Below are positions 25,731 through 61,965 of a stretch of 64,000 bases of DNA, piece after piece. The translations under genes and the position numbers were made by a program. Under the pieces are notes generated by a model. It saw nothing but the letters and a program-made list of their open reading frames with translations, ran no database searches and was not told where the DNA came from. Within the stretch, counting starts at the first letter, position 1, and each line of letters opens with the position of its first letter. Location: NCBI RefSeq assembly GCF_004010195.1, contig NC_057754.1, positions 9,237,215 to 9,301,214 of the forward strand. Reading direction: 5' to 3'. The stretch is from Chiloscyllium plagiosum (lineage: Eukaryota).

Positions 25731-26166
25731 CTATAAACCCACCAACTCAAAGAGTGATTGATAGTAACATGCACTCTGAAAGACAAATAGAGGTGATACT
25801 GGAATTGAAACAGATGAAACTGCAAGTAGGCTGCCAAATCAATTTGTATTGATTTTCATAAGAGAGGAAAAGGAAAAAATTGCCAGGTTGGCTACAAAAC
25901 TGAAGTTCAGTGCAGGTGTGGTGAGACCCTCCTTTCTTATTCAATCTGGAAAGATAACACATGGATGGGTTATTTCTAGGTGCCAGAATGTCAAAAATCA
26001 CTTGAGAATATTTGGAAGATGAGTAGAGGAATTAACACCAGTGTCCTGCTCAATGGCTGTCCACTGTCACATCACAAAAACACATTCTCTGCTCATTCTG
26101 CCCTTGCTGTCTCTGAGAGTTTGCTTGATGGATATTCCCTGCCATATTTCTAACATTACAACAAAG

Positions 26167-26265
26167 AAAAAAAGATTCCTGAAGAAGGGCTCATGCCCGA
26201 AACGTCGATTCTCCTGCTCCTTAGATGCTGCCTGACCTGCTGCGCTTTTCCAGCAACACATTTTC
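26167..26265 (+). mobile_element. Mini Penelope pLTR insert with hammerhead core and 15-bp TSD
   Basis: TSD AACATTACAACAAAG at 26152-26166 and 26266-26280; core CTGAAGA-aGGGCtcatGCCC-GAAA-cgtc at 26179-26206. Confidence 0.8.
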
Positions 26266-26379
26266 AACATTACAACAAAGTCAACATTTCAAAAAGGATT
26301 TCAAAGCACTTTGAGATTTTCACTGGTGGTGAAAAGCATGACGTAGAGGCAAGTCTGTCTTACCACAGTCCTCTGTTTA

Positions 26380-27788
26380 GATGAAAGTGAGGACTGTAGA
26401 TGCTGGAGATTAGAGTCAAGATTAGAGTGGTGCTGGAAAAGCACAGCAGGTCAGGTAGCATCCAAAGAGCAGGAAAATCAACGTTTGAGCCCCTCATCAG
26501 GAATGAGGCTGGGAGCCTCGGGGTGGAGAGATAAATGGGAGGTGGTGGGTCTGGGGAGAAGGTAGTTGAGAGTGCAATAGGTGGATGGAGGAAGGAAGAT
26601 TGACAGGTGGGACAGGTCATGAGGATGGTGCTGATCTGGAAGTTTGGAACTGGGGTAAGGTGGGGGAGGGGAAATAAGGAAATTGGTGAAGTCCACATTG
26701 ATGCCCTGGGGTTGAAGTGTTCCGAGGTGGAAGATAAAGCGTTCTTCCTCCAGGCGTCAGGTGGTGAGGGAGTGGCGGTGGAGGAGGCCCAGGACCTGCA
26801 TGTCCTCGGCAGAGTGGGAGGGGGAGTTGAAATGTTGCGCCACAGGGCGGTGGGGTTGATTGGTGCAGGTGTCCCGGCGATGTTCCCTGAAGTGCTCTGC
26901 AAGAAGGTGTCCAGTCTCCCCAGTGTAAAGGTGTCCTGTCTCTCCCACTGCATCGGGAGCAACGGATACAATAAATGACAGTTGTGGAAGTGCAGGTGAA
27001 ACTTTGATGGATGTGGAAGGCTCCTTTGTGGCCTTGGATGGAGGTGAGGGGAGAGGTGTGGGCACAGGTTTTGCAATGCCTGCGGTGGCAGGGAAGGTGC
27101 CAGGAGGGGAGGGTGGGTTGTTGGGAGGCTTGGACCTGACCAGGTCAGGTTGGAGGTCTGATCTCCATCCAAGGCCCCAAAGGAGCCTTTCACATTGTTC
27201 AAAGTTTCACCTGCACTTCCACGAATGTCATTTATTGTTGAGAACATGCAGGTTCTGGGCATCCTCCACCGCCACTCTCTGGGGAGAAGGTAGTTGAGAG
27301 TGCAATAGGTGGATGGAGGAAGAGGTAAAGGTGATAGGTTGGAGAAGAGGATAGAGCGGATAGATGGGAAGGAAGATTGACAGGTGGGACAGGTCATGAG
27401 GATGATGCTCACCTCCCTCCTCGGAACACTTCAACCCCCAAGGCATCAATGTGGACTTCACCAGTTTCCTCATTTCCCTTCCCCTTCACCTTACCCCAGT
27501 TCCAAACTTTCAGCTGAGCACCATCCTCATAACCAGTCCCACCTGTCAATCTTCCTTCCCACTGATCTGCTCCACCCTCCACTCCGACCTACCACCTTTA
27601 CCCCTTTCTCCAGCCACCTATTGCAATCTCAACTACCGTCTCCCCAGCCCCACCCCCTCCCATTTATCTCTCCACCACAAGGCTCCCAGCCTCATTCCTG
27701 ATGAAGGGCTCCTGCCCAAAGCGTCAATTTTCTTGCTGCTCGAATGCTGCCTGACCTACTGTGCTTTTCCAGCACCACTCTAATCTTG
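26380..27788 (-). mobile_element. Penelope-like element with inverted pLTRs (fold-back) and 15-bp TSD
   Basis: TSD ACAGTCCTCTGTTTA at 26365-26379 and 27789-27803. GIY-YIG remnant 'HLYTGETGHLLAEHFREH' (ORF 26757-27065). Terminal about 350 bp are inverted copies; the interior is rearranged. Confidence 0.88.
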
Positions 27789-28086
27789 ACAGTCCTCTGT
27801 TTACTGACCCTCATCCATGGATACAGTTTCTCACTATCTGCTGTGTCAAGCTCACTGTTACCCCGTTCCCCATCTCCATCATTTCAACAGGGCCATGGAA
27901 TCTTTGTTTAACCTTTCTGCTCTACAGGAGCAATCCTGGAGTCTGGATCCTCTCCATAAAACTGAGCTCATTCATCCCTGGCAGTGGATATGGGGGCTCA
28001 GTGGCCCCACCGCGCTAAGAACCCAGGTTCAATTCCAGCCTTGGGTGACTGTCTATGTGGAGTCTGCAAATTCTCCTCATTTCTGC

Positions 28087-28738: not shown

Positions 28739-29848
28739 CTGCTGGGTGCTCCAGTTTCTTCCCACAGTCCAAAGGTATGGTAGTGACCATGCTAAATTGT
28801 CTGTGGTGTCCAAGGGTGTGCAGGCTGAGTGGATTAGAGTCAAAATTAGAGTGGTGATGGAAAATCTGATTCCTGATGAAGGGCTTTTGCCCAAAACATC
28901 GATTTTCCTGCTCCTCAGATGCTGCCTGACCTGTTGTGCTTTTCCAGCACCACTCTAATCTTGACTCTGATCTCTAGCATCTGCAGTCCTCACTTTCGCC
29001 AGGCTGAGTGCATTAATCAGGGTAAAGTGCATGGTTACATGGATATGATAAAGAGCTGAGATTTGGTGGGATACATCTTGGAGGGCCAGTACAAACTCGA
29101 TGGACTAAACTGCCTCTACCTGCACTGTAGGAAACTTTGTACTGCAGGCTGAAGGATGTGGTGAGATTTTTGGAAAATACTATCCGTTGGCAGGTGGAAA
29201 CATTGAAACAAAACAAAATAGTCAGTCTGTAGCTTGTGAACCTTTCAAATCTCTTTGTGAATCAGACTCGAAGAAGAGTGAAGGGTGATCTGTCTGATTG
29301 ACCAGAGCTAGTCAAGTCACCTTTCCCTTCTTTAAGATGCTGTGACACTGATGCTGACATTGTTGGCAACTTTACCTGATCTGAGACATTGAAAGAACCA
29401 GGATTAATTGACAAGATCAGGAATTTAAACTGAATCTCAGCTGTGAAGTGATCAGATACGTGGCAACAGACAAGAAGCAGAAGTGCAAGAAGGAGATGGT
29501 TCCAGTTGTAGGAGAGCTGGATCCCAAAGACATGGATGACTCTGCAGTGAATGGGATCAGAAGAGTAAACTGATAGAGGATGATTATCATTCCTGGAAGA
29601 CACCATCTGAAGCTTGAACTCCCTGACTTCTGAAGAAGAGTCACTCTGTCTGTCTCCGCAGATGCTGCCAGAATGGCTGAGTTTCTCTAGCATTCTCAAA
29701 ATCTGTTTGAGGGAACCTTGTAGATTTCACTGCCTCAGTTTCTGCAGTGCAGTCTCTCAATTTGTTCCATTACGAACTTAAAGGTTGGTGGATTGAGTCA
29801 ATTTAAGGATGCGGCCTTCACCGTTTCACCGCATCAGCATTCAACACC

Positions 29849-30105
29849 AAGAAAGGCTAAATACTGCGGATGTCAGAAATCTGAAACAAACACAGAGAAT
29901 GCTACAGAAACTTAGCAGATCTGGCAGCATCTGTGGAGAGAAAAACAGAGTTTATGTTTCGAATCTGGCATTATCTTCTTTAGATCTGGTATGCCTTTCT
30001 TCAGTTCTGAAAAAGAGTCATACAGACTCAAAATGTAAACTCTGTTTCTCTCTCCACAGATGTTGCCAGATCTGTCATAATTCACCAGCATTCTCTGTGT
30101 TTGTT
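29849..30105. mobile_element. Fold-back Penelope-type pLTR insert
   Basis: Arms 29880-29965 and 30025-30108 are inverted copies; imperfect TSD TCAGCATTCAacACC / TCAGCATTCActACC (29834, 30106). Confidence 0.75.
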
Positions 30106-35009: not shown

Positions 35010-35885
35010 TGAGATTTGGAAAAGTTTATCGATTTCACTTCCAATTTTCACACCTCCCTCACTTTCACCTGGTCCATTTCTGCCACCTCCCTCCTCTTCC
35101 TGAAAATCTCTGTTTTCATTTCGGGGATAGACTGGCCACCAATATCCACTACAAACTCACCAACTCCCACAGTTACCTCCACTACACATCCTCACACCCT
35201 GTAGATATTCTATTCCATTCTCCCAATTCCTCTATCCCCGTTGCATCTATTCTGATGATGTCAACTTCAATAAGGGAGCTTCTGAAATGTCCACCTTCTT
35301 CCTCAACTGAGGATTCCCCAGTACTGTTGTTGGCAGACCCTGAGCCAGGTCCAAACTATCTCTCATACTTTGACCTTGACACCCTGTCTTCCCTCCCGCA
35401 ACAGCAATAGGGTGGCCTTTGTCATAGAGATGTACAGCAAGGAAACAGACCCTTCAGTCTAACCTGTCCATACTGACCAGATATCCCAACCTAATCTAGT
35501 CCCACCTGCCAGCACCCGGCCCATATCCCTCCAAACCCTTCCTATTTATATACCCATGAAATGTTGCAATTGTACCAGCCTCCACCACTTCCTCTGGCAG
35601 CTCATTCCATACACATACCACCCTCTGTGTGAAAAAGTTGCCTCTTAAATCTCTTTTCCTTCTCATCCTAAACCCATGCCCTCTAGTTCTGGACTCCCCG
35701 ACCACAGGGAAAAGACTTTGTCTATTTATCCTATTCATGCCCCTCATAATTTTGTAAACCTCTACCACAACCATCCCACCAGCATCCACATCCTGAGGAT
35801 CATTGGCTTCCATTTTCACGACCTTCAGAGACTTGCTACCACCAGATACATATTTCCCTCCCGTCCTTTGTCAGTCTTCTGCAGG
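35010..35885 (+). mobile_element. Penelope-like RT remnant interrupted by an antisense CR1 (35423-35765)
   Basis: 'KFIDFTSNFHTSLTFTWSIS...' and 'GDRLATNIHYKLTNSHSYLHYTSSHP' are Penelope RT motifs; the CR1 gives 'FFTQRVVCVWNELPEEVVEAG' in reverse. Confidence 0.8.
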
Positions 35886-36640
35886 CACCAAGTCCGGAAA
35901 GGATTCACTCAGTCATCCAGTTTGCTCATCCATCAACAAATTCACACTGGGGAGATACCATTTACCTGCACTGAGTGTGGGACGGGAATCACTCAGTCAT
36001 CTAAACTACTGACACATCAGAGAATTCACACTGATGAGGGACCATTCAGGTGCTCCTAGTGTAAGATTGGGTTCAGGTGCTTATCTGAACTCAGCATACA
36101 CCAGTGCTCTCACACCAGAGAGAGGCCATTTACTCGTATGTAGTATGGGAAGGGATTTACCAATTCATCCACCTTGCTAAGACACCAACACCCTCACACT
36201 GGGAGGAGGCCATTCATCTGCTCTGACTATGGGAAGGGATTCACTCAATTATCCAGTCTGCAGAGACACCGGTGAATTCATACCAGAGAGAGGCCATCGA
36301 TCTGCTCAGAGTGTGGGAAAGGACTCTCCCATTGAAACAATCTTCTGAGACATCAGCAAAAACATACACGTGAAAAGTTGTTCATCCATTCCAAAGGATT
36401 CAGTCAATTGTCCAATGTTGTGACACACCAGCGAATTCACACTGACAAGAGACCCTTCAAATGTTCAGATTATGGAAAGTGCTATGAAGCTTCAGGGGAA
36501 TTGATGTCTCACCAACGTGCTCACACTGAGGAGAGATTATTCAGGTGCTGGGCTCAAGGGATCATCTCAACTTGCTGTACACAAGCAAGCCCACACTGGG
36601 AGAAGCCATTCACCTGCTTTGAACCAACAACACTGAAGAA
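35885..36640 (+). pseudogene. C2H2 ZNF pseudogene (about 8-9 degenerate fingers), paralog of ZNF-A
   Basis: '[28 protein letters not shown]' and '[37 protein letters not shown]'. In-frame stops (e.g. TAG 36057), lost Cys residues; 5' end abuts a Penelope fragment. Confidence 0.88.
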
Positions 36641-42329: not shown

Positions 42330-42672
42330 AATCTTCAGTCATGGGATATGGGCATCACCAGCCAGCATTTATTACCATAACTAAATGTCCAGAGGGCAGT
42401 TAAGAGTCAGCCATTTGCTGTGGGTCGGCAGTCATATGTAGGCCAGACCAGGTAAGGATGTTAGTTTCCTTCCTTAAAGGATCATTAGTGAACCAGTTGG
42501 GTTTTTCGACAATTGGCAATGGTTTTGTCGTCATCATTAGACTCCTCATTCCTGATTTTTGTTGAGTTCAAACTCCACCATCTGCCATGGCAGGATTCGA
42601 ACTTGGCTCCCCAGAGCACTACTGGCTTCTGGATTAAAAGTCGAGCAATAATACCACTCAGCTAACACCTCC
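42330..42672 (-). mobile_element. tRNA-derived Deu/SacSINE-like SINE overlapping the ZNF-B stop codon
   Basis: Minus strand 'ggaggtgttagctgagtggtatt...gttcgaatcctgccatggcagatggtgg' has A- and B-boxes; homologous head at 50058-50150. Confidence 0.7.
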
Positions 42673-44484
42673 CTTGATCTGTCTCACAGCAGCAAGAACA
42701 GAATCTAGCTCTGCCTCAAACACGTGAATTTGCTGGTGTTTCAGGAGGCTGGATGGCCGGCTAAATCTCTGTTTGCACAAAGAGCAGGTGAGCTGCCTCT
42801 CCCTGGCATGAACTCTGTAGTGTCTCTGCAGGTGGGATGGATCAGTGAATCCCTTCCCACACACAGAGCATTTAAACGGCCTCTCCCCAGTGTGACTACG
42901 TTGGTGTCTCACAAGGTGGGACGAATAAACAAACCCCTGACCACACACGGGACAGATGTACGGCCTCTCCCCAGTGTGAATTCGCTCATGTATCCTAAGG
43001 TAGGGCAAACGAGGGAAACGCTTCCCACATACGGCACAGAGAAATGGCTTCTCCCCAGTGTGAACTCGCTGGTGTGCTTCGAGCTTAGACGACTGAGTGA
43101 AACTCTTCCCACACACAGGGCAGATGAGCGTCTTGTGAACCTGTTGGTGTCTCGCCAGATTGTGTGACTGAGCAAATTTCTTTCCACACTCGGGGCAGGT
43201 GAACGGCCTCTCCACAACGTGAATACGTTGGTGTCTCTGCAATCTGGACAACAAAGTGAATCCCTTCCCACACGTGGTGCAGGTGAACACCATCTCCCTG
43301 GTGTGAATAAGACGGTGTTTCTGCAGGTGGTGGAAACGAGCAAAACCCTTACCGCACACACCACAAATGTAAGGTTTCTCCCCAGTGTGAACACGTTTGT
43401 GAACCAAAAGGTGACACATCCGAGGGAAACTCTTCCCACACACAGAGCAGATGAACGGCCTTTCTCCAGTGTGAACCCGCTGGTGTGTCAGCAGGATAGA
43501 CGACTGACTGAATCTTTTCCCACACACGGAGCAAGAAAACGGTCTCTCTCCTGTATGAATACGTTTGTGCATCAGAAGGTAGGTTGAACGAGTGAATCTC
43601 TTCCCACACACACAGCATGCAAATGGTTTCTCCCCAGTGTGAACACGCTTGTGTGTTGAAAGGTCAGATGCCCGATTGAATCTCTTCCCACATGCAGAGC
43701 AACTGAATGGCCGCTCCCCAGTGTGAATCCTTTTGTGTGTCAGGAGGTGGAATGGATGAGCGAATCTCTTGTCACACACAGAGCAGAAAAACAATCTTTC
43801 CTTGACGTGCGTGGTCTGATGGTTCAAGAGATGAATCTTTCTTTTAAATGTCTTCTGACATTTAGAACATTTAAAAGGTCTCTTAGCAGAATGAACCAGT
43901 TGGTGATTAATGCAATGGGAGGCCTGAGTGAATCTCTTCCCACAGTGGAAGCAGCTGAATGGCCTGTCCTTGGTGTGAACTTGCTGATGCTCAGCGAGAT
44001 CCTCTGGCCCAGTGAAAACCTCCCGACAATGAGAGCAGCTGAACGGTCTCTCGTGAATGTGAAGGAGCTGGTGCTCCCCGAGGCAGGACAACAGACTAAA
44101 CCTCTTTCCACAGTGGGAGCAACTGTACGGCCTCTCATCAATGTGATTTTTGACTATTTCCTTAGAAGATTCAAAGATGTCCCCAGGCTCAGAGCGTTGA
44201 AGATGCCTCTCAATGTGATCAAGTTGGTGTGCCCGTAGGTTGGATGAACAACTAAAGCTCTTCCCACACACAGAGCAGGTGAACAGTCTCTCGCTTTTGC
44301 GAGCTCGCTGACGTGTCAGCATGTTTCCCTGCTGGGTCAATCCCTTCCAACAGCGGCCTTTCACCAGTTTCCAGCTGAGCCTGTTATTATCTCCCTTCAA
44401 TCTGCAAATCTTGAGATTCAAGAGACCGTCTTGACATGAGGCTTGGGTTGACTTTCCTAAGTGCAAACGTTCTCTTCCAATATC
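42658..44484 (-). CDS. C2H2 zinc-finger protein (ZNF-B), main coding exon, 18 intact plus 2 degenerate fingers
   Basis: Long open frame with TGE[KR]P linkers. Acceptor 'gcaaactcctttcacag|gatattgg' at 44484 (phase 0), homologous to the ZNF-C acceptor. First in-exon ATG is at 44322 (554 aa). The ORF-track N-terminus upstream of 44484 is intron/CR1 read-through. Confidence 0.92.
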   Translation of the reverse strand, partial: DIGRERLHLGKSTQASCQDGLLNLKICRLKGDNNRLSWKLVKGRCWKGLTQQGNMLTRQRARKSERLFTCSVCGKSFSCSSNLRAHQLDHIERHLQRSEPGDIFESSKEIVKNHIDERPYSCSHCGKRFSLLSCLGEHQLLHIHERPFSCSHCREVFTGPEDLAEHQQVHTKDRPFSCFHCGKRFTQASHCINHQLVHSAKRPFKCSKCQKTFKRKIHLLNHQTTHVKERLFFCSVCDKRFAHPFHLLTHKRIHTGERPFSCSACGKRFNRASDLSTHKRVHTGEKPFACCVCGKRFTRSTYLLMHKRIHTGERPFSCSVCGKRFSQSSILLTHQRVHTGERPFICSVCGKSFPRMCHLLVHKRVHTGEKPYICGVCGKGFARFHHLQKHRLIHTREMVFTCTTCGKGFTLLSRLQRHQRIHVVERPFTCPECGKKFAQSHNLARHQQVHKTLICPVCGKSFTQSSKLEAHQRVHTGEKPFLCAVCGKRFPRLPYLRIHERIHTGERPYICPVCGQGFVYSSHLVRHQRSHTGERPFKCSVCGKGFTDPSHLQRHYRVHARERQLTCSLCKQRFSRPSSLLKHQQIHVFEAELDSVLAAVRQIKGGVS

Positions 44485-44584
44485 CTGTGAAAGGAGTTTG
44501 CAAGGAATTACACAGAACATCCAATATACAATCAGGCTTTTACTTAGAAACACAGAATTATAGAATATTACAGTATAGAAGAAT

Positions 44585-45040
44585 ATAGAAACTAAGAGCA
44601 AGAGTAGACCATTCGACCCCCTGACCAAGCTTGGCCCTTCATCATCGAGCAATACACCCTTATACTGCCCTGCCACCCCCTTCCCCCTCCACTCTGATAC
44701 TTTTATCCTTTGAGCCACAGAGCGATATTGAAAACACAATATTTTGGCCTCAGCCAGTAGTGAATTCCACTGGCTGACCACTCTCTGGATAAAGAAATTG
44801 CTCATCTCAGTCGTAAAACGTTTGCCCATTACCCTTAATTATGACCCATGGTTAGAGTCTCCCTCACCATCAGGAACATTCTTCCTGCACCTAACCTGTC
44901 TCACCCTGTTAGAGTACTATAGATTTCTGAAATCTTCTCTCATTCTTCTTAGCTCCAGTGAATACAATTCTGACCGACTCAATCACTCCTCATATGTCAG
45001 TCTTGCCACCCCAGGCATCAGTGTGGTAAACCTTTTCATT
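44585..45040 (-). mobile_element. CR1 LINE 3' fragment in the ZNF-B intron
   Basis: 'NFFIQRVVSQWNSL' and the CR1 3'UTR. Confidence 0.8.
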
Positions 45041-45212: not shown

Positions 45213-45515
45213 TTAGATTAGATTAGATTACATTACATTGTGGAAACAGGCCCTTCGGCCCAACATGTCCACACTGACCCGCCGAAGCGCAACCCACCCA
45301 TACCCCTAACCTAACACTACTGGCAATTTAGCATGGCCAATTCACCTGACCTGCACATCTTTGGACTGTGGGAGGAACCGGAGCACCCGGAGGAAACCCA
45401 CACAGACACGGGGAGAATGTGCGAACTCCACACAGACAGTCGCCTGAGGCGGGAATTGAACCCGGGTCTCAGGCGCTGTGAGGCAGCAGTGCTAACCACT
45501 GTGCCACCGTGCCGC
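45213..45515 (-). mobile_element. HE1-like V-SINE, young full-length copy
   Basis: Near identity to 54154-54481, with CpGs retained. Confidence 0.92.
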
Positions 45516-45892
45516 TCACATTCATGGCTCCCTATTGGATTCTCCAAGATGTGGAAGCATTTCAGCTATATGGACCAGTCCAAACTATTCAGAATTTTCA
45601 AAATGTACATAAAAGACAAATATTTGTTTTTAACTTTACTGTGTCTAAATACTCTCCTCCTCAACTGCTATAAAATGACTCTGTTAACTCACTTTTAGGC
45701 AAAACTGAGGACTGCAGATGCTGGAAAGCAGAGTTTGGATCAGAGAGGTGCAGGAAAAGCACAGATCAGGCAGCATCCGAGGAGCAGGAAAATCGATGTT
45801 TCAGGCAAAAGCTCTTCATCAGGAATAACTCACTTTTTAGATTAGAATCAGTCTAAATATTATGGCACAAACAGAGAAGACAGGGGGCTAAT

Positions 45893-46450
45893 AGAGTCAT
45901 AAGATGTACAGCATGGAAACAGACCCTTCGGTCCAACCCATCCATGCCGACCAGATATCCCAACCCAATCTAGTCCCACCTGCCAGCACCCGGCCCATAT
46001 CCCTCCAAACCCTTCCTATTCATATACCCATCTAAATGCCTTTTAAATGTTGCAATTGTACCAGGTTCCACCACTTCCTCTGGCAGCTCATTCCATACAC
46101 GTACCACCGTGTGTGTGAAAAAGTTGCCCCTTAGGTCTCTTTTATATCTTTCCCCTCTCACCATAAACCTATTCCCTCTAGTTCTGGATTCTGTGACCCC
46201 AGGGAAAAGATTCTATTTATCCTATCCATGCCCCTCATAATTTTGTAAACCTCTATAAGGTCACCCCTCAGCCTCCGACGCTCCAGGGAAAACAGTCTCT
46301 CCTTTTAGCTCAAATCCTCCAAACGTGGCAGCATCCTTGTAAATCTTTTCTGAACCCTTTCAAGTTTCACAACATCCTTCTGATAGGAAGGAGACCAGAA
46401 TTGCACGCAATATTCCAACAGTGGCCTAACCAATGACCTGTACAGCTGCA
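45893..46450 (-). mobile_element. CR1 LINE 3' fragment
   Basis: ORF 45970-46164 '[43 protein letters not shown]'. Confidence 0.9.
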
Positions 46451-46477
46451 TTAATACCTTCAACATATTATCTGGCT

Positions 46478-46955
46478 AACAAAATCACACAGCACCAGAT
46501 TATAGTCCAACAGGTTTAATTGGAAGCATACTAGCTTTTGGAGCGACGCTCCTTCATCAGGTGATGAAAGCTAGTGTGCTTCCAATTAAATCTGTTGGAC
46601 TGTAACCTGGCGCTGTGATTTTTAACTTTGTATACCCCTGTCCAATACCGGCACCTCCAAATCATGACCAATTTACAGTTAACCTGAGAATGTAACTTTA
46701 AAGAAAAGTTGTGATTTACATATGAAAGAAGTGAAACTATCATAGTATTCGAACAGATGAAAGACTCAACAAACAATCAAGGTATTTTTCAATGTATAAC
46801 TTCAGTTTCATAACACTGTAAACTTTTGCTATAAATTCTGTGTCTTACAATTGTGTCCTCCACAATCACCTGAAGGAGCGTCGCTCAGAAAGCTAGTGCT
46901 TCCAATTAAACCTGTTGGACTATAACCTGGTGTTGTGTGATTTTTAACTTTGTAA
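46478..46955. mobile_element. Penelope-type pLTR pieces, including a fold-back (46480-46625)
   Basis: Inverted arms 'tatagtccaacaggtttaattggaagc' and 'gcttccaattaaatctgttggactgta'; homologous to 48850-49140. Confidence 0.75.
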
Positions 46956-46972
46956 ATCCCTATAAAACGCAC

Positions 46973-47660
46973 TTGTCCCATTCCAGGGGAAAGTATTCTG
47001 AACGTTCTCTGACCCAGCGCATGCGCCCTGCAGCGCGCCGCCTCTACAAAATGACAGCCACGCATGTGCCACACCACATTAAGATGGCGGCTGCGCTTGC
47101 GTCCTCCTCCCGCAGAGCCCCGGTGGAGGCGGCAGTCAGCGCGGGGGCCTGTCAGTGAAGAGGCCGCGAACACGTCGCAGGTTGGTGAAAACAAGCGACC
47201 TGCTACCTTGACTGGGGTTCGAAGCGTACGTTGGGTGTTTGTTACGGATTTTCAGCCCACTCGCTCCGGGCACAGACTCCGCCGAGGCCTTTCTCCGAGA
47301 GACCTGAAGGGCGAACCTCTTCCCGAAAGCGACACGCGCACTGCAGCGGCGCGTGGTGCACATGTGACCAACGGCGGCTCCGGGCCAATAGGGCGAGGAG
47401 GCGTGCCGGGAGGACCGAGCTGGGGAGACTGGTCCTCCAACGAAATTGATTGAGTGAGGGGGGGGAGGAGGCGTGGCTGGAGGACCGAGATGGGTGATTG
47501 GTCCTCCAACGAATCAGATTTGAACGAAGTGGGGGGCGGGGGCAGAGCCCGCCGCGCTCTCATTGGCCGAGACTTTCCTTTACTTGGTTCAGATGCCAGG
47601 ATGAAAGTGGGTCTTCCTGGTTGTGGCTTTAAAGGCTGGAGCACGCGTTTCAAAACTTGG
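46973..47660 (-). promoter_or_regulatory. CpG-island promoter and first exon of ZNF-B
   Basis: CpG-dense; NRF1 GCGCATGCGC at 47017; YY1 AAGATGGCGG at 47081; CCAAT at 47385; GC box at about 47533. Candidate exon end 'ggaATGggacaa|gtgcgt' (46981-46973) is in phase with the 44484 acceptor. Confidence 0.75.
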
Positions 47661-47974
47661 GATTAAAAAAAAAGGGGAATATGATGAGACAAACGCACAA
47701 ATATTTCAAAGGCCGATTTAAGCGAATATTGGTTAGACAAAGCGACTAAATAAAAACCAAAAGAACTGCAGATGTAATTGGCCATGCTAAATTGCCTGTA
47801 GTGTTCAGATGTGTAGGTTAGGTGCATTAGTTCGGGGTAAGAGGGTAGGGGAATGCATCTGGAAGGGTTAGTCTTCAGTATGGCCTTGTTGGGCCAAATG
47901 GCCTGTTTCCACACTGTAGAGATTCTGTTATTCTGTGAAATCAGAAACAAAAACGAAGTTGCTGGAGAACACTT

Positions 47975-49140
47975 GCTGCAACCGACAGGGTACCCTTCTG
48001 TTGTTCAGTATTTCCCAGGGGCTGCAAACTTACGCCATGACCTGCAACACATTATCAATGAGGATGAGCACCTCACCAAGACCTTCCCCACACCTCCACT
48101 ACTTGCCTTTAAACAACCGCCAAACCTCAAACAGATCGTTGCTCGTAGCAAGCTGCCCGGCTCTCAGGACAACTCCATACAACCCTGTCACGGTAGGCGC
48201 TGTAAGATGTGTCAGAGTGTGGACATAGATACCACCATTACGCGTGGGGACACCTCCCACCNNNNNNNNNNNNNNNNNNNNNNNNNNNNNNNNNNNNNNN
48301 NNNNNNNNNNNNNNNNNNNNNNNNNNNNNNNNNNNNNNNNNNNNNNNNNNNNNNNNNNNNNNNNNNNNNNNNNNNNNNNNNNNNNNNNNNNNNNNNNNNN
48401 NNNNNNNNNNNNNNNNNNNNNNNNNNNNNNNNNNNNNNNNNNNNNNNNNNNNNNNNNNNNNNNNNNNNNNNNNNNNNNNNNNNNNNNNNNNNNNNNNNNN
48501 NNNNNNNNNNNNNNNNNNNNNNNNNNNNNNNNNNNNNNNNNNNNNNNNNNNNNNNNNNNNNNNNNNNNNNNNNNNNNNNNNNNNNNNNNNNNNNNNNNNN
48601 NNNCTCTGCATTCACTACACACACACATACACTTTCTCACACTCACAACCCCCAACCCAGACAGACCAAGACCCACATGCACACATATATTTTGTGGGGT
48701 GAATTTGTACTTGCAGGGTAACATTGTACTTTGCTCAAAAACTGCATGAATTCATGTAAAACTCCGTTATCTCACTTTTTAGATTAGAATCAATCTAAAC
48801 ATCATGGCATAGACAGAGAACACAGGGGGCCAACACCTTCACCATTGTTAACGGCTAACCCGAGAATGCAACTTTTTACAAAAGGATTTTGTGATTTACA
48901 CATGAAAGAAATGAAACTATCACTGTATTCCAACAGATGAAAGACTTAACAGACAATCAATTTTTCAATGTAAATTTTTGCTATAAATTCTGTGTGTTAG
49001 GATTGAGCCCTCCACTACCACCTGATGAAGGAGCGTCGCTCCGAAAGCTAGTGTGCTTCCAATTAAACCTGTTGGACTATAACCTGGTGTTGTGTGATTT
49101 TTAACTTTGTACACCCCAGTCCAACACCGGCATCTCCAAA
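47975..49140 (+). mobile_element. Penelope-like element (RT thumb to pLTR, with gap)
   Basis: 'PSVVQYFPGAANLRHDLQHIINEDEHLTKTFPTPPLLAFKQPPNLKQIVARSKL...PCHGRRCKMC' is a typical Penelope linker; pLTR with hammerhead at 49019-49053. Confidence 0.85.
49019..49053 (+). ncRNA. Minimal type I hammerhead ribozyme motif in a Penelope pLTR
   Basis: cac-CTGATGA-a-GGAGC gtc GCTCC-GAAA-gcta-gtg: intact core, 5-bp stem II, 3-bp stem I. Confidence 0.7.
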
Positions 49141-49294
49141 TCGCAGCTTCCTCTGAGGAAGGGTAACTGGACCCGAAGCGTTAATTCTGATTTCTGTCTA
49201 CAGATGCTGCCAGACAGCTGAGCTTCTCCAGCAATTTCCATTTTTGTTTGTAGACAAACAACAAATGAACTGGCAGGAAAGTGAGGGCAGTTTG

Positions 49295-52119: not shown

Positions 52120-54150
52120 CAGAGTATCACCAGTCAGACTACTTGCAGTCTTAGTGATCCTGATCACACATTACCCCCCAAAAAAACCTAATGACTTTGG
52201 ACATGGTTTTCAAAGAGTTGAAGAAGAAGCAACAGCTTAAAAATGGCTTCCTGCTCTCGATGTCAAACCAATAGATGACAAATTCTGCACAGAATCTGTT
52301 TTGATCTTTACACATGGACAGTTGGATTCCATACAGGTCCAGTGGTACCAGTCTTGTTTCAGGGCTCGAGATATGTCCTGGGCAGAGATGACAGGCCTGT
52401 CCAGCCAGAAAGCTGCTAAGAAAACTTTCTTTAAAAGACAGCGAGAATCTATTCCATTTCTATAATGTTCAACCAATGTCTTCAGGTTTTTATCAGGAGA
52501 TATGATCCCAGAATACTGGATGAGTTGAACTTTTTAAGGACGTGCTGCACCACAATCATTTAAAGAAAAGAATGTGTAGAATAACCTAGGGTACAAAAAT
52601 GAAGCAGCAGCACATCAGAATTAACTTGAAACACCAAAAGAGTCTTTACTGGACAAATTCCAACAAACAACACGAACAACAGTGAGCGAGCAAGATAATG
52701 ATTTTAATCAATATAAATTTCTACTTTGAATGAAATCCAACAGACCTAACATTGCTCTTTTTTTTTACCGCGGCTTTCATACAGATAGGTTTTTAAACAG
52801 ATTCATACTTGGGAAGAGAGTTCCTTTTCTTCTCTGAGTCTGCCGACACAAGCCACAGTTCAGGTCTTCAGTGTGATCTGAAAATGTGTTGCTGGAAAAG
52901 CGCAGCAGGTCAGGCAGCATCCAAGGAGCAGGAGAATCGACGTTTCGGGCATGAGCCCTTCTTCAGTATGCCCCTACAATACAACCTCCTTGTCTAAATA
53001 TAGGCATCACTGACAATTTCATACCACAGTCCATCAGACAGATGTAGACACTTTGTGAATGTCTATTCTGTAGTCGGACCTCTCTCATTACAGAGCTATT
53101 TGGTCCTGTCCAATTCATGAGAACTCACTCTGACTCTCTGTAAACCTGAAGAATCAATTTCTTTAGTCCAACACTGCAGATCAAATTTCTTCTCACATCC
53201 TTCCTTTTTGAACCAAACACCACCAATCTTTCTTTAGATCACAGTCCACTATCATTTTTTCCCCATAAAAACCCTAGAGCTTTCATATTTATAAGACTCT
53301 AAACTAGGTTAAAAGTGGAAGCATTATTTATAAAGCTGCAGGCATAATAAGCCAAAAGGAGATTAAACAACCTGTATTTTGCTTTAAACTGAAACCAAAA
53401 TTCACATGTATAACCCTTAGTATAGCACATAACAAAGACAGTTATGTCAAGTATCATTCAGCAATTTGTTACCGATCTCCCAGCCTTCAGAAAGTACCAT
53501 CCATATTGATTTCAGGCTATTCCAACTCTCAGCTCCAATCTTATTTACCTAATTTCACGATGGAATACCTAAGAGGGAATACCTAAGCTTCTAAAAAGAT
53601 CAGACTCAGAACACAAGCCCTCGATCTGCCTCCAGGAATAAATCTCGAAATGCTATCACCAACGTGTGAAAAACTGTCAACTTAGAATCACTAGACTTGC
53701 TCTCACGATTCTAAATTGTTGACACGTTGTCAATCCCTATGGTTTAGGTAAAAGTTCCAGCGGGAATTTAAGATTCTGCAGCTCTCACTATTTGCCTGCA
53801 TCCACCTTGTAGGTATTTCCTCAATACAGGTTCTCTGTCTCACTTTTACATAAAAGGCACTCTGTCTGATATTGTTGGTAGAATCCATTACATTAAAGTC
53901 AGTTCCGATGTGGAGTGTGCCTTAATGATTTACAATGGTCATGTTGTTCTGTTGTCAAATCTCTGAGTATGGCTGGGACATGCTGTTCAGGGCAGCTCCA
54001 CCATGCATTTCCACATTTTATTCTTCAGGGGCTATAAATCATATCTGCTTTCTAACACTGCTTCCCCAATATCATGCTACAAGTGGCATCTGATACAAAC
54101 CACTCATGACATTTAGGTAACCTTGTCAGAAGTCCAAGGAAGTATCAGTT
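52120..54150 (-). mobile_element. Highly decayed LTR-retroelement/ERV-like internal region (integrase-like and env-like traces)
   Basis: Minus-strand pieces 'FYVKVRQRTCIEEIPTR' (53805-53855; compare integrase LVxVDxFSxWxEAFPT), 'SWRQIEGL' (about 53615-53640), and further along 'VRLQNR', 'RQGGCIVG' and a hydrophobic Cys-rich segment (52590-52715). Many stops; weak. Confidence 0.35.
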
Positions 54151-56250: not shown

Positions 56251-56679
56251 CGGGGTTATGTTACATGGTATTCAACCTGACACCAAAGTGTCGCATCGAA
56301 AGAAAAGCTGCTGTTGCTTGGAATGGTGCCGGAGGCTGAGGACAGAGAGGTCAAAGTGGGAGCAGGGTGGAGAATTAAAATAATAAGTGACTAGAAGCTC
56401 TGGGTCCAGCTTGCAGACTGAACAGAGGTAATAAAACGATCATCCAATCTGCCCAATATAAAGATCACTTCGTGAGCGATGAGTACAATCATCAAACTAC
56501 AAGAAATATCAGTATATCACAGTTTAGTCTTATCTCTTAAAGTGCTGAGAATAGCCTGAAGAATGATGCTTTGCTTGCAGAGTGGATTCTAAGATATTAT
56601 AAATAATTATAATATAGAAATAGTGTTATTTTATGAAATAAAGACATTGTCAGAATAATAAATTCATTCCTAGTTATAA

Positions 56680-56870
56680 GGATATTTAAATATCAACAGA
56701 AATAAACACTAACTCTGAGTGAAGATGTTTCAGTCCTGTACATGACGAACTGCAAAACCAAACCCCTGCAGTCACTGGTGAACTCACTGGTTTCTTACTG
56801 GGTTGGAAGATGGACTAAATTTCTCTTCAAGTGCACAGAACAACCTTTTCCATTGTGAAAACACTGATGA
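56680..56870 (-). pseudogene. ZNF relic: last degenerate finger plus 3'-UTR motif
   Basis: Minus strand 'tcttccaacc...aaaccagtgagttcaccagtgactgcagggg...tacaggactgaaacat...tttatttctgttgata' resembles a terminal HQRVH*-type finger followed by the shared post-stop motif. Confidence 0.6.
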
Positions 56871-58178
56871 ATTAGGAATGTGTAGAGATGCTGATGTTGG
56901 GCTGGGGTGGACAAACAATCAGAAGTCACATAACACCGGGTTACAGTCCAAAAGGTTTATTTAAAGTCACAAGCTTTCGGAGTGCTGCTCCTTCATCAAG
57001 TGAAGTGGAGGGAAGAGCAGAGGCACAGTGTATATATCTTTATATATATTAAAGAGAAAGATAATGGTAAGCTAATTCCAGATAATTAAGTGTATCAACA
57101 AATAATACAAGTAGGGTGAGTAGTGTTGGCAGTGTCTTTTTTTGTGTTTCCCTCCACTTCACCTATGAAAGAACAGTGCTCCAAAAGCTTGCGATTTTAA
57201 GTAACCCTGTTGGATTATAACCTGGTGTATGGGAAATGATAGATTTCCCAAGCACCAGCTGCTCTTTGTCCTTTTGGGCTTTGTTGGTTTGGGAAGGTCT
57301 GTTTAAATTCTGTTTGAGTTGCAGGTGTACACAGACTATTCCCTCTGTCCTGTTTTCCATCTCTATCTCTTTCTCCCCCTCTTCACGAAAGCCAGAATCT
57401 CTATGACCAGACCTGGTGGCAGGTTCCCCTCCCTGAATGACACTAGTGAACCAATTGCATTCTTGTGACAACCCTTTCATGAACACTTTGTCCTCATGCA
57501 GTTCCACTAATGACCAAATTCATTCAGCTCAATTTTTCAACCTGCCTTTGCGCTTTTATCGTATTGTATTTGCTTGCTGCATTTGTATGTTAACTAAGTG
57601 ATTTGTGTACAGCAGCGCCCAGTGTGCCATTAGAACCGTTCAAGTGTCCAACAAAATTTTGTATGAAAGTAATGAAGACATCGTTTCATCTTAAACAGTG
57701 TTTTATGCAGCCAAAATTAAACTCCTAAAACCTGTGAAAATTAATCCTCAAATTAAAAGTATGGTATTGGCCTTTGGTTCTAAAATATGTATATTCCAAT
57801 CAGACGTGGCCAAAGGGCACAGTTGAGATCATGTGAAAAAAGTGGACACATTGTGGAATTGTTTGGTTCATTGAAGTCTGCTGTGTTATTGAAAAGGTTG
57901 TTAACTGTTGATGTATAAGGATATTCAGGTTCCTCTGCATGAAAAAAATTTCCAATCTCTCACCATTAAACTGCCCCACCAGACTGAATAACTCATTAAA
58001 TTGTCGTCCATCTCCCATATTCCAACCCACTTAATCGACCTTTCCATGGTATCATGGCTGAGGCCCTATTTCAGAGCATGATGAAAAATGGTAAAGCTGG
58101 CTTCGAAACCTGCTTGGATCTGCATCATAGGGATACACAAGTTGAGCAGGTTTTCAAAATCAGGCCATTAATGAGATA

Positions 58179-58374
58179 GGAGAAAGTGAGGACTGCAGAT
58201 GCTGGAGATCAGAGCTGAAAATGTGTTGCTGGAAAAGTGCAGCAGGTCAGGCAGCATCCAAGGAGCAGGAGAATCGATGTTTGAACATGAGAAGGGCTCA
58301 TGCCCGAAACATCGATTCTCCTGCTCCTTGGATGCTACCTGACCTGCTGTGCTTTTCCAGCAACACATTTTCAA
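58179..58374. mobile_element. Fold-back Penelope pLTR mini element with 14-bp TSD
   Basis: TSD CCATTAATGAGATA at 58165 and 58375; inverted arms. Confidence 0.85.
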
Positions 58375-58409
58375 CCATTAATGAGATAAGCAACTAACTA
58401 AAGAGGCAA

Positions 58410-59000
58410 CTATCACAGGACCTCTGCCATTTCCGCCACCTATAGACAGATCCCACCACCAGTGATTGGGTCCCTCCCCATCCCTATCTGCATTTTATAA
58501 AGACCATTCCCTCCATGACTCTCGTCAGGTCCATGCACCCCTGTCCCACCACCCCACCGTCCCCTCCTGGCACCTTCCCCTGCCACTGCAAGAATTGCAA
58601 AACCTACGCCCATACCTCTCCCCTCCCCTCTGTCCAAGGCCCCAAAGGAGTCTTTCTCATCCATTACAGATTTACCTGCACTTCCACACATGTCATTTAC
58701 TGCATCCATTGCTCCCGAAGTGGTCTCCTCTACACTGGGGAGACAGGACACCTACTTGCAGACCCCTTCAGAGAACATCTCCGGGACACATGCACGAAGC
58801 AACCCCACTGCCCTGTGGCCAAACACTTTAACTCCCCCTCCCACAAGGACATGCAGGTCATGAGCCTCCTCCACCGCCAAAGCCTTATCACCTACCGCAT
58901 AGAGGAAGAACACCTCATCTTCCACCTTGGGACCTTTCAACCGATTCTCCTGCTCCTCGGATGCTGCCTGACCGGCTGCGCTTTTCCAGCAACACATTCT
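58410..59000 (+). mobile_element. Penelope-like GIY-YIG remnant
   Basis: ORF 58515-59078 'HVIYCIHCSRSGLLYTGETGHLLADPFREH...EEEHLIFHLGTFQP'. Confidence 0.88.
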
Positions 59001-59469
59001 CGACATAGGACTAGATTATGTCTCAGCACTAATAAAGGTAATGAGATCCTAAAGAAAGGTCAGATGAATCAGCCATGATCAAATGGCTCAATTTTTCTAC
59101 ACCGTAAGGTCTTAACTCCTTTGAACCTGACTCAACATCAACCTTCTACACATATGACATGTGGTTGTTTTTAAGATCAGTTGTTCCTTTACATTCTGTT
59201 GTTCTGAATGATGACAGGATTATACTTTTGCCAGTTCATTTATTGAAAACCTGGAACTCTCCTTATTCTAATAGTGACATTCCATTGTCTCCCAGTTATT
59301 CCTTTAAATCAGCTCTTGACTTGTCTCATCATATGCCCCATTTCAGTAACAAATGTCGAAATGTTTCCTCCAGCCTAAGGGTTCCATCTTTTTGAGGCCA
59401 GAAAGTTGAAGCTCTAGTTTCCTCTTGGGGTTCAGCACAAATCAAGCTTGCAAATGAATATCGGTTTTA

Positions 59470-59910
59470 ACCAATGACCGATAGGCAGATTCCGGCCCGC
59501 CTCCCCCCCTCCGATTGGTTGGAAGAACAGAGGCTCACAAACAACCCTCCAGCTCCACCCTCTCTTCGTATTGGTTGGAAGCTACCGTCAATCACTAAGA
59601 CGGCGCGAGCTAGGCATGCGCAGTGAGGAGCTGAAGCGGGAACACCAATGGTCGGTTGGAAATTCGTGGTGGCGGTGGTGGAGGGACAAACCTTTCGGTG
59701 AACTGACGAGAGGCTTCACACAGACTCGGTGTAAGCCTTAAACCCCGAATAATAAGCTCCCAGTTCGGCGTTCACCCAGAGCGGGAGCCAGTGGCGGATT
59801 CTCCTCAGAAAACAGGCCCAAGTTAACGGCCGCCGAGGGCTCAGGCGTATCGCCCGCCGCCATGCTGCTGAGGACGGTATGCTGCGCAGCGCATGCGCAG
59901 CCCTCACCTT
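59470..59910 (+). promoter_or_regulatory. CpG-island promoter and first exon of ZNF-C
   Basis: CCAAT boxes (59471, reverse at 59514 and 59570), CCGTCAATCAC, NRF1-like motifs at 59613 and 59889; 'gccgccATGctgctgaggacg|gtatgc' gives a Kozak ATG at 59862 and a candidate donor at 59876. Confidence 0.75.
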
Positions 59911-60699
59911 CATGGGTTGGCAAAACTGAATGATGATCCCACAGGAACAATAAATGAGAGAGAGAGAGTCTGGGGAAACTCGTTGGGTTGTTATAAAATG
60001 GGAGGCAAGGGGTGCAGTCAGCAGCAACACTTACCATTTCTATCTATACAATGCCTTTGACATAATAAACCACCCTGGTGAACTTCACATCAAGGAGGTA
60101 AAACAAATAGTTACTTAGAGGGTCAGGATGAACCTGTGCAGATGATCACACACTTGGTGATAGACGAAGGGTTAAGAGAGAAAAGTTAGGTTTAAGGAGG
60201 GAATTCCAGCACGTATGGTGGAGCAATGAAAATTCGGATTGTGCAAGAGGGTCAGATTTATCAGAGGAGAAGTATCTTAGAGGCTTGTGGAGTTAGAGCA
60301 CAAGGAGGGGTAAGAAGTGGAGATGTTGCTTGTTTAGGTCAGTGAGCACAGGAATGATGGGAATTGCTGTGAGTTACCAACAACAAAATTTTGGATGACT
60401 TCAAATGTCTAGAGGGTAATGTGGGAGACCAACAGGGTTGCATTGGGACAGTCAAGCCCGGAGGTAACAAAAACATGAATAAGGCTTCCTGCAGCAGATT
60501 CGCTGAGTCAGAAATAAGGTTGGATACTATTATTGAGGTATAAAAAGGTGATCTTAGTCATGGCACATATGATCAGAGGCTGTGAACAGGCTGGCAGAAT
60601 TTCAATGTTCCATGGAGAATGATGGAGGCAGTAGCTGGAGAATGGAAATTGGAGCAGGGATTGTCAACAGTGCTGTTTATCTTGTGCAAGGTTAGTGAA

Positions 60700-61965
60700 G
60701 GTTTGTAGCTCAGGTTGAGATTTAGGGTGTAGGTTTGCTCGCTGAGCTGTAGGTTTGATATCCAGATGTTTCATTACCTGGCTAGGTAACATCATCAGTG
60801 GCAACCCCTAAGTGAAGCGAAGCTGTTGTCTCCTGTATTCTATTTATATCTTTCTCCTGGATGGGGTTCCTGGGGTTTGTGGTGATGTCATTTCCTGTTC
60901 GTTTTCTGAGGGGTTGACAGATGGCATCTAGATCCATGTGTTTAGATTAGATTAGATTAGAATACGTACAGTGTGGAAACAGGCCCTTCGGCCCAACAAG
61001 TCCACACCGCCCCGCCGAAGCGCAACTCACCCATACCCCTACATTTACCCCTTACCTAACACTACGGGCAATTTAGCATGGCCAATTCACCTGNNNNNNN
61101 NNNNNNNNNNNNNNNNNNNNNNNNNNNNNNNNNNNNNNNNNNNNNNNNNNNNNNNNNNNNNNNNNNNNNNNNNNNNNNNNNNNNNNNNNNNNNNNNNNNN
61201 NNNNNNNNNNNNNNNNNNNNNNNNNNNNNNNNNNNNNNNNNNNNNNNNNNNNNNNNNNNNNNNNNNNNNNNNNNNNNNNNNNNNNNNNNNNNNNNNNNNN
61301 NNNNNNNNNNNNNNNNNNNNNNNNNNNNNNNNNNNNNNNNNNNNNNNNNNNNNNNNNNNNNNNNNNNNNNNNNNNNNNNNNNNNNNNNNNNNNNNNNNNN
61401 NNNNNNNNNNNNNNNNNNNNNNNNNNNNNNNNNNNNNNNNNNNNNNNNNNNNNNNNNNNNNNNNNNNNNNNNNNNNNNNNNNNNNNNNNNNNNNNNNNNN
61501 NNNNNNNNNNNNNNNNNNNNNNNNNNNNNNNNNNNNNNNNNNNNNNNNNNNNNNNNNNNNNNNNNNNNNNNNNNNNNNNNNNNNNNNNNNNNNNNNNNNN
61601 NNNCATGGACGGTACGGTTTTCCCCACTGCCGCTGCTCTCCTTTATTAGTCAGGGTATTGAACACATCTATCCTGGGACAGGCTAAGCAAAGACATGCCA
61701 GAGAATTCCTAGAGGCCTGGCACTCCAACCACAATGCCATAAACAAACACATAGATCTAGATGCCATCTATCAACCCCTCAGAAAACGAACAGGAAATGA
61801 CATCACCACAAACCCCAGGGACCCCATCCAGGAGAAAGGTATAAATAGAAAGCAGGAGACAACAGCTTCGCTTCACTTGGAGGTCGCCACTGATGATGTT
61901 ACCTAGCCAGGTAATGAAAGGTCTGGATATCAAACCTACAGCTCAGTGAGCAAACCTACACCCTA
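60700..61965 (+). mobile_element. Penelope-like element with inverted pLTRs, containing a SINE piece (60945-61093) and a gap
   Basis: 60723-60942 is the reverse complement of 61746-61965. ORF end 'ILGQAKQRHAREFLEAWHSNHNAINKHIDLDAIYQPLRK'. Hammerhead cores at 61887-61926 (plus) and 60762-60801 (minus). Confidence 0.85.

What the first reader, a model, noticed from the sequence alone, without database searches (positions are those of the whole stretch)
26152..61926. Several families of Penelope-type repeats carry minimal hammerhead ribozymes with covarying stem II
Seen: the core CTGA(T/A)GA...GAAA recurs in repeats that are otherwise unrelated, each with a different but paired stem II. Examples: GGGC-tcat-GCCC (26179-26206 plus; 52935-52966 minus; decayed at 27698, 28873, 45790, 19485), GGAGC-gtc-GCTCC (49019-49053; 46531-46562 minus), GTTACCT-agcc-AGGTAAT (61887-61926; 60762-60801 minus), and GAGTC/GGGT variants (30006, 49153). 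Known: Penelope-like retroelements carry minimal type I hammerheads that are thought to cleave as dimers. Inference: at least 3-4 ribozyme-bearing lineages are dense in this ZNF cluster, including in ZNF introns, where sense copies could cleave pre-mRNA.
Basis: partly seen in the sequence, partly recalled or inferred. Interest (0 to 1): 0.72.

Follow-up and report, generated by a model that had tools for sequence, protein, structure and literature searches.

The report
Penelope hammerheads on capped RNA leaders
The tiny hammerhead-ribozyme motifs are real but are pieces of a known kind of jumping gene (Penelope-like) spread over the whole genome; most are likely copies of the capped, uncut front end of the element's RNA and probably do not cut the neighbouring zinc-finger genes' transcripts.

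Summary
The motifs are real: 6 strict hits against 0.26 in shuffles. They belong to at least three RT/GIY-YIG (Penelope-like) lineages and match the published minimal PLE hammerhead. They are not special to this ZNF cluster: 95 per Mb here, 70 per Mb in unselected tiles, 43,169 exact cores of one family genome-wide. Only 2 of 27 window copies inspected keep the full anatomy, and all four sense copies in predicted ZNF introns are damaged, so pre-mRNA cleavage is unlikely. The copies are informative about mechanism. In two Neptune-like families, 5' ends pile up at an initiator-like A just before the core, often with an extra G (50 of 100; 61 of 78), not at the cut site (2 of 141). This points to capped, uncut templates. 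Head-to-head pairs carry one long and one short tail (40 of 43). Five U6 copies are joined exactly at the predicted cut, so some cutting likely occurs in vivo. This scan noted the cap and U6 readings before, on other DNA of this genome; I reached the first independently and re-tested the second. My paper searches found neither in print.

The parts
26175..26266 (+). Family A short insertion with full master anatomy. It starts at the initiator-like A (26175), with a G at 26174; core C3 at 26179; predicted cut between 26206 and 26207; short tail. Flanked by a 15-bp target-site duplication at 26152-26166 and 26266-26280.
52879..52966 (-). Family A short insertion that begins at C3. Core intact, but the 5' strand of stem I is missing.
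19431..20245 (-). Family A 3' fragment with RT-thumb coding remnant. Core intact at 19515-19488, with G10.1.U and U2.1.G wobbles and U17. Sense to the predicted intron of the ZNF gene at 11798-12895.
26427..27206 (-). Older family A fragment with GIY-YIG coding remnant; stem II partly deleted.
27694..27778 (+). Older family A copy, G12 lost.
28869..28953 (+). Older family A short copy (TTTT loop), starts at ATTC with a G before it; G12>A.
45749..45826 (-). Older family A short copy, sense in the likely first intron of the ZNF gene at 42658-44838. Stem II and the stem III palindrome are broken.
58216..58380 (.). Family A head-to-head pair; both arms lack C3-A6.
58428..59006 (+). Family A linker and GIY-YIG coding remnant joined directly to the tail at the predicted cut site (about 58943, one C ambiguous). 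A candidate record of a cut end; a single case.
47841..49143 (+). Family B 3' fragment: coding remnant with a Cys-rich linker, then the pLTR with an intact hammerhead (C3 at 49022, AGCT palindrome, 3-bp stem I; initiator-like A at 49014) and the long tail. Interrupted by an N gap.
46481..46651 (.). Family B head-to-head pair. The minus arm (sense to the ZNF gene) has G12>A; the plus arm begins at G12.
46722..46960 (+). Family B pLTR fragment, core deleted and mutated.
56895..57228 (.). Older family B head-to-head pair, decayed cores.
13234..13360 (.). Older family B head-to-head pair, decayed.
60723..61965 (.). One family C (Poseidon-like) inverted insertion: minus arm 60723-60907 and plus arm 61604-61965, with the end of the endonuclease frame. 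Cores at 60798 (-) and 61890 (+) are intact, but both stem III palindromes are mutated (ACAT, AGGT).
49153..49249 (+). Family D (GGGT stem) copy directly after the family B tail; A15.1>G.
29884..30100 (.). Family E (GAGTC stem) head-to-head pair, decayed cores.
2408..2512 (+). Family F copy with the U3-A8 core variant (TTGACAA), 4-bp stem I and ACGT palindrome; one stem II mismatch.

Best explanation
The motifs are minimal type I hammerheads in the terminal repeats of at least three Penelope-like retrotransposon lineages, and most copies in the window are decayed by-products, likely made when the element's reverse transcriptase started at an internal 'tail' site and ran off the capped 5' end of an uncut transcript. 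Shown: links to RT/GIY-YIG coding sequence; the motif's anatomy; sharp 5' ends 4 nt (family A) and 8 nt (family B) before the core; excess G at that junction; two 3' ends about 35 nt apart; one long and one short arm per head-to-head pair; U6 joined at the predicted cut. Inferred: the 5' end is a Pol II start at an initiator, the G is a copy of the cap, both target strands are primed in one complex (one at each start site), and the ribozyme cuts only a minority of RNAs. When it cuts, probably as a protein-assisted dimer, it would remove the cap and the first 32-37 nt; this would serve the element (processing or silencing its own mRNA), not the ZNF genes.
For: Element type: family C frames carry RVT_1 (E 5.5e-12) and a weak GIY-YIG match (E 0.0011, below cut-off); family A frames carry a weak RVT_1 match (E 0.0042), a YIDD motif and a Cys-rich linker; each lies upstream of its hammerhead. 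In L311 a family B hammerhead is followed by the tail and then the ATG of a long frame, so the short copies equal the 5' leader. Anatomy: the majority sequences of A, A', old A, B and C all have CUGANGA, one unpaired base, a 4-7 bp stem II, GAAA, a palindromic ACGU or AGCU and a 2-5 bp stem I. 5' ends, family A: 59 of 141 young copies end at -33..-29 from the cut, none at -70..-43, 2 at +1. Among 63 solo copies, 28 end at -34..-28, 20 run past -70 and 2 end at +1. Family B: 19 of 48 end at -40..-29, none at +1. Extra G, hand counts on the first 100 listed matches: family A 50 G, 28 A, 22 T (7,538 matches in all); family B 61 G of 78 truncated rows, 39 of 56 without partner-arm cases (2,584 in all). 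About 27% was expected; p = 1e-6 and 6e-11. In L184 and L202 the G lies outside a 12- and a 14-bp target duplication. Short and long copies share the same four commonest haplotypes, so they likely come from the same masters. 3' ends cluster at about +58..68 and +96..98, like the two RT start sites of PMC11167929. 40 of 43 head-to-head pairs have exactly one long tail; 30 of 38 share a haplotype, against 12.8 in shuffles. U6: 2 of 30 loci and 4 of 23 pattern matches, five distinct loci, join five U's to G1.1. Decay: core 12 of 1,040 non-CpG sites against flank 20 of 1,144, p = 0.29; G12, in a CpG, is mutated in 14 of 104 copies.
Against: No cap or start site was seen in RNA. In one search no place had many molecules beginning or ending, and that library is poly(A) single-cell data. 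Of the family A solo junctions with a clean target duplication, only 2 show a clearly untemplated G; in 4 the G ends the duplication, one has an extra A and one TT. Family C has no pile-up: 23 of 39 copies run past 110 nt. The 5' ends spread over several bases, with -31 (22) above -32 (16), blurred by microhomology. Most sampled copies come from one contig. The U6 cases are from older A subfamilies, were recognised by eye, and came from a lead in earlier notes. Two other U6 copies join PLE coding sequence away from the cut (L259, L263). Shared haplotypes in pairs could reflect conversion between arms. In ViennaRNA the hammerhead fold is not the lowest-energy form for monomer or dimer; only stem II forms reliably.
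Confidence: 0.68

Rival explanations
1. One reading: sense copies in ZNF introns cleave the pre-mRNA and affect ZNF expression.
For: Four copies lie sense to predicted introns: 19515, 45822, 46560 and 61890. U6 junctions suggest that this motif can cut in cells. The two intact copies, 26179 and 49022, are on the plus strand and could lie in plus-strand transcripts from the CpG islands at 21 and 47 kb; contigs of X1 and X6 stop at a plus-strand donor-like site near 47181. PMC11167929 aside, 10.64898/2026.07.22.740005 reports under-representation of related retrozymes in Xenopus introns.
Against: 45822 has a broken stem II, 46560 lacks G12, 61890 lacks the palindrome and 19515 has three changes. 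No predicted intron holds two intact same-family sense copies. The inverted arms would pair: -352 and -84 kcal/mol for the C and B pairs. Monomers did not cleave in PMC4209133, and the PAc ribozyme needed protein in PMC11167929. Poly(A) reads from other family B loci cross an intact core uncut (385 of 429 reads have G12). There is no sign of selection on cores.
Confidence: 0.07
2. The short copies come from a separate short, SINE-like master or from a stall of the reverse transcriptase at the pyrimidine tract, and the G is templated or picked from the target.
For: In 4 clean solo junctions the G is the last base of the target duplication. The 5' ends spread over about 6 nt. The sequence just upstream is very C/T-rich.
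Against: Short and long copies share the same haplotypes. Two unrelated pLTRs both stop at a CA initiator-like step and both show the G. No ends fall at -70..-43, inside the tract. Two G's lie outside the duplication.
Confidence: 0.17
3. Head-to-head pairs arise by self-priming or fold-back on one template, as proposed for rotifer PLEs, and the hammerhead is a passenger that hardly ever cuts.
For: Arms mostly share a haplotype (30 of 38). PMC3846280 proposes self-priming. Naiads thrive without hammerheads (PMC8557442). Cleavage was not needed for insertion in vitro (PMC11167929). Only 2 of 141 copies start at the cut.
Against: Fold-back alone does not explain one long and one short tail in 40 of 43 pairs. 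Five U6 junctions lie exactly at the bond. The core is kept across unrelated masters, including the compensated U3-A8 form.
Confidence: 0.08

Closest known systems
Minimal hammerheads in pLTRs of metazoan PLEs (Cervera and De la Pena 2014, PMC4209133; parts 1-2 of 4 read: abstract, results, discussion)
   Same: Core, unpaired base between 9 and 10.1, short helix I, palindromic 15.2-16.2, several consensus families per genome, mostly single truncated copies, nearby opposite-strand pairs, U3-A8 variant. Found there in Xena, Poseidon and Neptune elements of fishes, coelacanth and frog.
   Different: Copy number is far higher here (43,169 exact cores of one family, against about 4,000-9,000 descriptor hits in their richest vertebrates). 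Family A's stem I has a U.U mismatch; family C has G10.1.U11.1. The parts read do not mention cartilaginous fish, 5' end pile-ups or cap traces.
PAc, the Poseidon element of Anolis (Frangieh et al. 2024, PMC11167929; parts 1-2 of 4 and passages read)
   Same: Two internal RT start sites that make the optional tail; both target strands cleaved and extended; unprocessed RNA as the main template; family C's frame opens at an ATG at the start of stem II, as in PAc.
   Different: They found no reads ending at the cut and do not discuss the start site or cap. Here the copies mark the likely start, pairs use one start site each, and U6 junctions mark the cut. Families A and B are Neptune-like, with the hammerhead in a non-coding leader.
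Penelope of Drosophila virilis promoter (Schostak et al. 2008, PMC2377424; passages) and PLE insertion structures (Craig et al. 2021, PMC8557442; Arkhipova et al. 2013, PMC3846280; passages)
   Same: Start site and initiator inside the pLTR; inverted 5'-truncated copies; 30-40 bp tail on one side.
   Different: In D. virilis the start lies 46 nt before a 75-nt intron whose end meets helix I. Here the likely start is only 4-8 nt before the core.
U6/LINE-1 chimeras made by RtcB (Moldovan et al. 2019, PMC6789731; abstract and start of introduction read)
   Same: U6 ending in five U's joined to a retroelement RNA; the join needs a 5'-OH.
   Different: Here the partner is a PLE, and the join falls at one predicted ribozyme bond in five loci.
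Small PLE hammerheads that cleave as dimers (Lunse, Weinberg and Breaker, RNA Biol 14:1499; not held, seen only as cited in PMC6765202)
   Same: Short palindromic stem III, dimer cleavage.
   Different: Could not be read, so not compared.

Membership tests
Penelope-like elements (EN+) | RT followed by a C-terminal GIY-YIG endonuclease | tested here: met
   Family C: RVT_1 above cut-off, GIY-YIG weak. Family A: weak RVT_1 and GIY-YIG, 25-30% identity to C. Family B: RT similarity to A and C at E about 1e-6; its endonuclease was not examined. All from partial frames.
Penelope-like elements (EN+) | pLTR after the frame and before it in partial tandems | tested here: met
   Hammerhead downstream of frames in L295, L296, L300, L302, L154, L167; upstream of the ATG in L311.
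Penelope-like elements (EN+) | Inverted 5'-truncated partner and an optional 30-40 bp tail | tested here: met
   43 head-to-head pairs, 40 with one long tail; two 3' end clusters.
Neptune clade (A, B) and Penelope/Poseidon clade (C) | Cys-rich linker between RT and EN present in Neptune or Nematis, absent in Poseidon; place in an RT tree | tested here: inconclusive
   Linker seen in A (L299) and B (window 47841 frame), not in C (L170) (criterion from PMC8557442). No tree was built, so Nematis is not excluded.
Minimal type I hammerhead of metazoan PLEs | CUGANGA and GAAA..UH core kept across families while flanks differ | tested here: met
   Exact in the majority sequences of all 7 groups of 3 or more copies among 253 descriptor hits. 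The descriptor itself fixes the core; anchor-selected family A copies show it without that bias.
Minimal type I hammerhead of metazoan PLEs | Unpaired base 9/10.1, G10.1-C11.1, palindromic 15.1-16.1, short helix I | tested here: met
   Family C has G10.1.U11.1; its sister C2 has G-C.
Minimal type I hammerhead of metazoan PLEs | Self-cleavage after H17 as a dimer or with protein help | not testable with these tools
   Indirect only: five U6 joins at G1.1.
Rfam hammerhead families | Match to a curated covariance model | tested here: not met
   No hammerhead family among 11 matches at E <= 5.
Non-LTR retrozymes (10.64898/2026.07.22.740005, parts 1-2 of 5 read) | Tandem head-to-tail units, each with a hammerhead | tested here: not met
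   Window copies are solo or head-to-head. No tandem-repeat program was run.

The most novel reading that the evidence does not exclude
In Neptune-type elements the hammerhead is the first 40 nt of the capped mRNA and acts as a self-decapping switch. The dimeric element protein primes both target strands at the two tail sites and copies the uncut leader twice, giving capped-end stubs and asymmetric head-to-head pairs. The minority of RNAs that are cut leave a 5'-OH that RtcB can join to U6. The genome thus records the start site, both RT start sites and in vivo ribozyme cutting at base resolution.
Probability: 0.45. Interest if true: 0.68.

Novelty: new member of a known kind. Interest (0 to 1): 0.44.

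Why it matters
PLE hammerheads are known, but their role is stated as unclear (PMC8557442), their activity in vitro is weak (PMC4209133), and cut ends were not found in lizard RNA (PMC11167929). Tens of thousands of copies here give exact, testable coordinates for the start site, the two RT start sites and the cut. For the ZNF cluster itself the finding is ordinary repeat litter.

Tried and rejected
Enrichment in the ZNF cluster: rejected. A pile-up of ordinary 5' ends at the cut site: rejected, 2 of 141 in A and 0 of 48 in B. Selection on cores of inserted copies: not seen. Core against flank plus loop gave p = 0.013, but that is driven by subfamily loop variants; core against flank alone gave p = 0.29. 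A type III fold with a cut at -32: rejected from the sequence, as there is no room for stem I. The first family B histogram used a poor reference and was redone. An exact U6-plus-tail pattern found 0 matches; the known cases differ from it. Rfam hits to microRNA precursors are the inverted pairs, below gathering scores. The run search listed no RNA holder on record; RNA was laid only on 45440-48250, so the join of the first exon to the coding exon was not seen. Descriptor hits at 42540 and 59703 had no second copy of the motif in the window and were dropped. Pfam gave nothing for 4 of 5 window fragments and for L299 and L311. Lunse et al. could not be read. Paper searches for the cap and U6 readings and for sharks listed no paper on these points. 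The library lacks most subscription papers, and no supplements were opened; those of PMC4209133 and the bioRxiv preprint (which sampled one chondrichthyan) may list such motifs.


Full report
Observation. A strict descriptor (CTGANGA, optional base, stem of 4 bp or more, GAAA) finds 6 sites in the window against 0.26 in 200 shuffles: 19515, 26179, 49022, 52966, 60798 and 61890. Self-BLAST shows families A (GGGC stem), B (GGAGC), C (GTTACCT) and older D, E and F types that share A's tail. I inspected 27 copies by eye; only 26179 and 49022 keep core, stem II, palindrome and stem I as in the family majority. Hammerhead numbering and the role of G12 are recalled. That the genome is a shark's is an inference from recalled repeat types and the earlier notes, not from a call.

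Not special to the cluster. The genome (3.56 Gb) holds 43,169 exact 28-nt family A cores, 60,377 A tail 37-mers, 23,342 B tail 33-mers and 2,489 C 33-mers. Strict hits run at 70 per Mb in 33 unselected 10-kb tiles and 95 per Mb here, p = 0.28.

What they are. Family C frames have RVT_1 (E 5.5e-12) and a weak GIY-YIG match and lack a Cys linker. Families A and B have the linker that PMC8557442 gives for Neptune and Nematis. Window remnants match these frames at 46-91%. The majority motifs have all features listed in PMC4209133. Family F shows the U3-A8 core change in 6 copies, as reported there for Schistosoma. In L311 the B hammerhead, the tail and the ATG follow in order. In C the frame opens at stem II, as in PAc (read from the sequence).

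5' ends. I collected 210 family A copies by an anchor 3' of the cut. 205 had enough flank; 141 young and 59 older ones were scored and 5 with N at the junction were dropped. Ten of the 120 loci had been picked by the core pattern, most of them also anchor hits. Of the young, 59 end at -33..-29, none at -70..-43, 24 further upstream, 5 at -1..+1 and 2 at +1. Solo copies behave alike: 28 of 63 at -34..-28. In B, 19 of 48 end at -40..-29, 5 of them at -37, and none at +1. C shows no pile-up. The A at -32 (A) and at -37 (B) each sit in a BBCABW initiator-like word (consensus recalled). The base before that A, counted by hand on the first 100 listed non-C junctions, is G in 50 of 100. For B it is G in 62 of 100; after removing 22 read-through rows, 61 of 78, and after removing 22 partner-arm rows, 39 of 56. 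About 27% was expected. Target-duplication analysis of 30 A and 30 B loci gave few clean cases: in A, 2 untemplated G, 4 G that end the duplication, 1 A and 1 TT; B gave one clean case, with an extra A. That reverse transcriptases copy a cap as an extra G is recalled; the passages seen in PMC10018344 only mention template-switch G's. I infer capped, uncut templates. This would also explain why stem I is so short: in subfamily A' it pairs exactly from that A.

3' ends and pairs. Of 135 young copies, the ends cluster at about +58..68 and +96..98, like the two RT starts in PMC11167929. 40 of 43 head-to-head pairs have one long and one short arm, and 30 of 38 scored pairs share a two-site haplotype (shuffle mean 12.8, 0 of 5,000 reach 30). 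This fits one complex that primes both target strands, one at each site. Arm conversion and same-age effects are not excluded.

Does it cut? Earlier notes pointed to U6 chimeras, and I tested this. 2 of 30 U6 loci and 4 of 23 U6-end matches (one shared) carry five T's joined to G1.1 of older A subfamilies, followed by normal PLE ends. Two other U6 copies join PLE coding sequence elsewhere. RtcB needs a 5'-OH partner (PMC6789731), which a hammerhead leaves. So cutting likely happens in the germ line, in a minority of RNAs. The window's own join at about 58943 may be such a record; it is one case. Against frequent cutting: poly(A) reads from other family B loci carry an intact core and cross the bond uncut, with poly(A) about 30 nt further on.

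ZNF introns. Coding exons lie at 11798-12895 (-), 42658-44838 (-) and 62732-63862 (+), with CpG islands at 21, 47 and 59.5 kb. One contig of X1 (RNA is a guess) matches 47206-47336 and leaves at a GT donor; the joined exon was not seen, and the other two gene models are predictions. The four sense copies in these introns are damaged or lack a partner, and two have a complementary arm nearby. In 104 inserted A copies the core decays like its flank. I put host pre-mRNA cleavage at about 7%.

Novelty. The motif and element type are published. The cap-marked leader copies, the one-long-one-short rule and U6 at the cut were not found in my paper searches, which miss most subscription papers. This scan noted the cap and U6 readings before on other DNA of this genome. 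I had written the cap reading down before that look-up; the U6 lead and the word 'leader' come from those notes. They are not independent support. Verdict: new members of a known kind, with a useful mechanistic record; interest 0.44.

Noticed in passing
window 2408-2512 (+); L024, L068, L076, L093, L215: A family with the compensated U3-A8 hammerhead core (TTGACAA), 4-bp stem I and ACGT palindrome, in 6 copies.
   Followed up: partly
family B tail, window 46500-46520 (-) and 49060-49080 (+): The pLTR holds ATTAAA. About 350 single-cell reads from other loci are polyadenylated just after it, in sense, so B copies can act as poly(A) signals.
   Followed up: partly
window 46927-47181: Contigs of X1 and X6 end at a plus-strand donor-like site near 47181, suggesting a second, opposite transcript from the same CpG island that may begin in or near the family B pLTR at 46722-46960.
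   Followed up: no
families D, E, F, e.g. window 30040-30062 (+), 49185-49203 (+): A pyrimidine run plus CAG-ATG, like a 3' splice site, lies about 20 nt after the predicted cut; sense copies could be exonised. D copies also have TCAGTT, an initiator-like word, just before the core.
   Followed up: no
L245, L252, L253, L257, L262, L265-L270, L277, L288: Many U6 copies are joined to the 5' start of one abundant SINE-like repeat.
   Followed up: no
L248: U6 followed directly by a tRNA-like sequence.
   Followed up: no
window 35649-36330 (+): Decayed fourth zinc-finger stretch fused to repeat sequence.
   Followed up: no
window 49143-49153; L230: A family D copy starts right at the end of a family B tail, and in L230 an A pair follows a B tail: PLE copies nested at each other's ends.
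   Followed up: no
window 22207-22278 (+): tRNA-like match just above the Rfam gathering score (31.6 bits).
   Followed up: no
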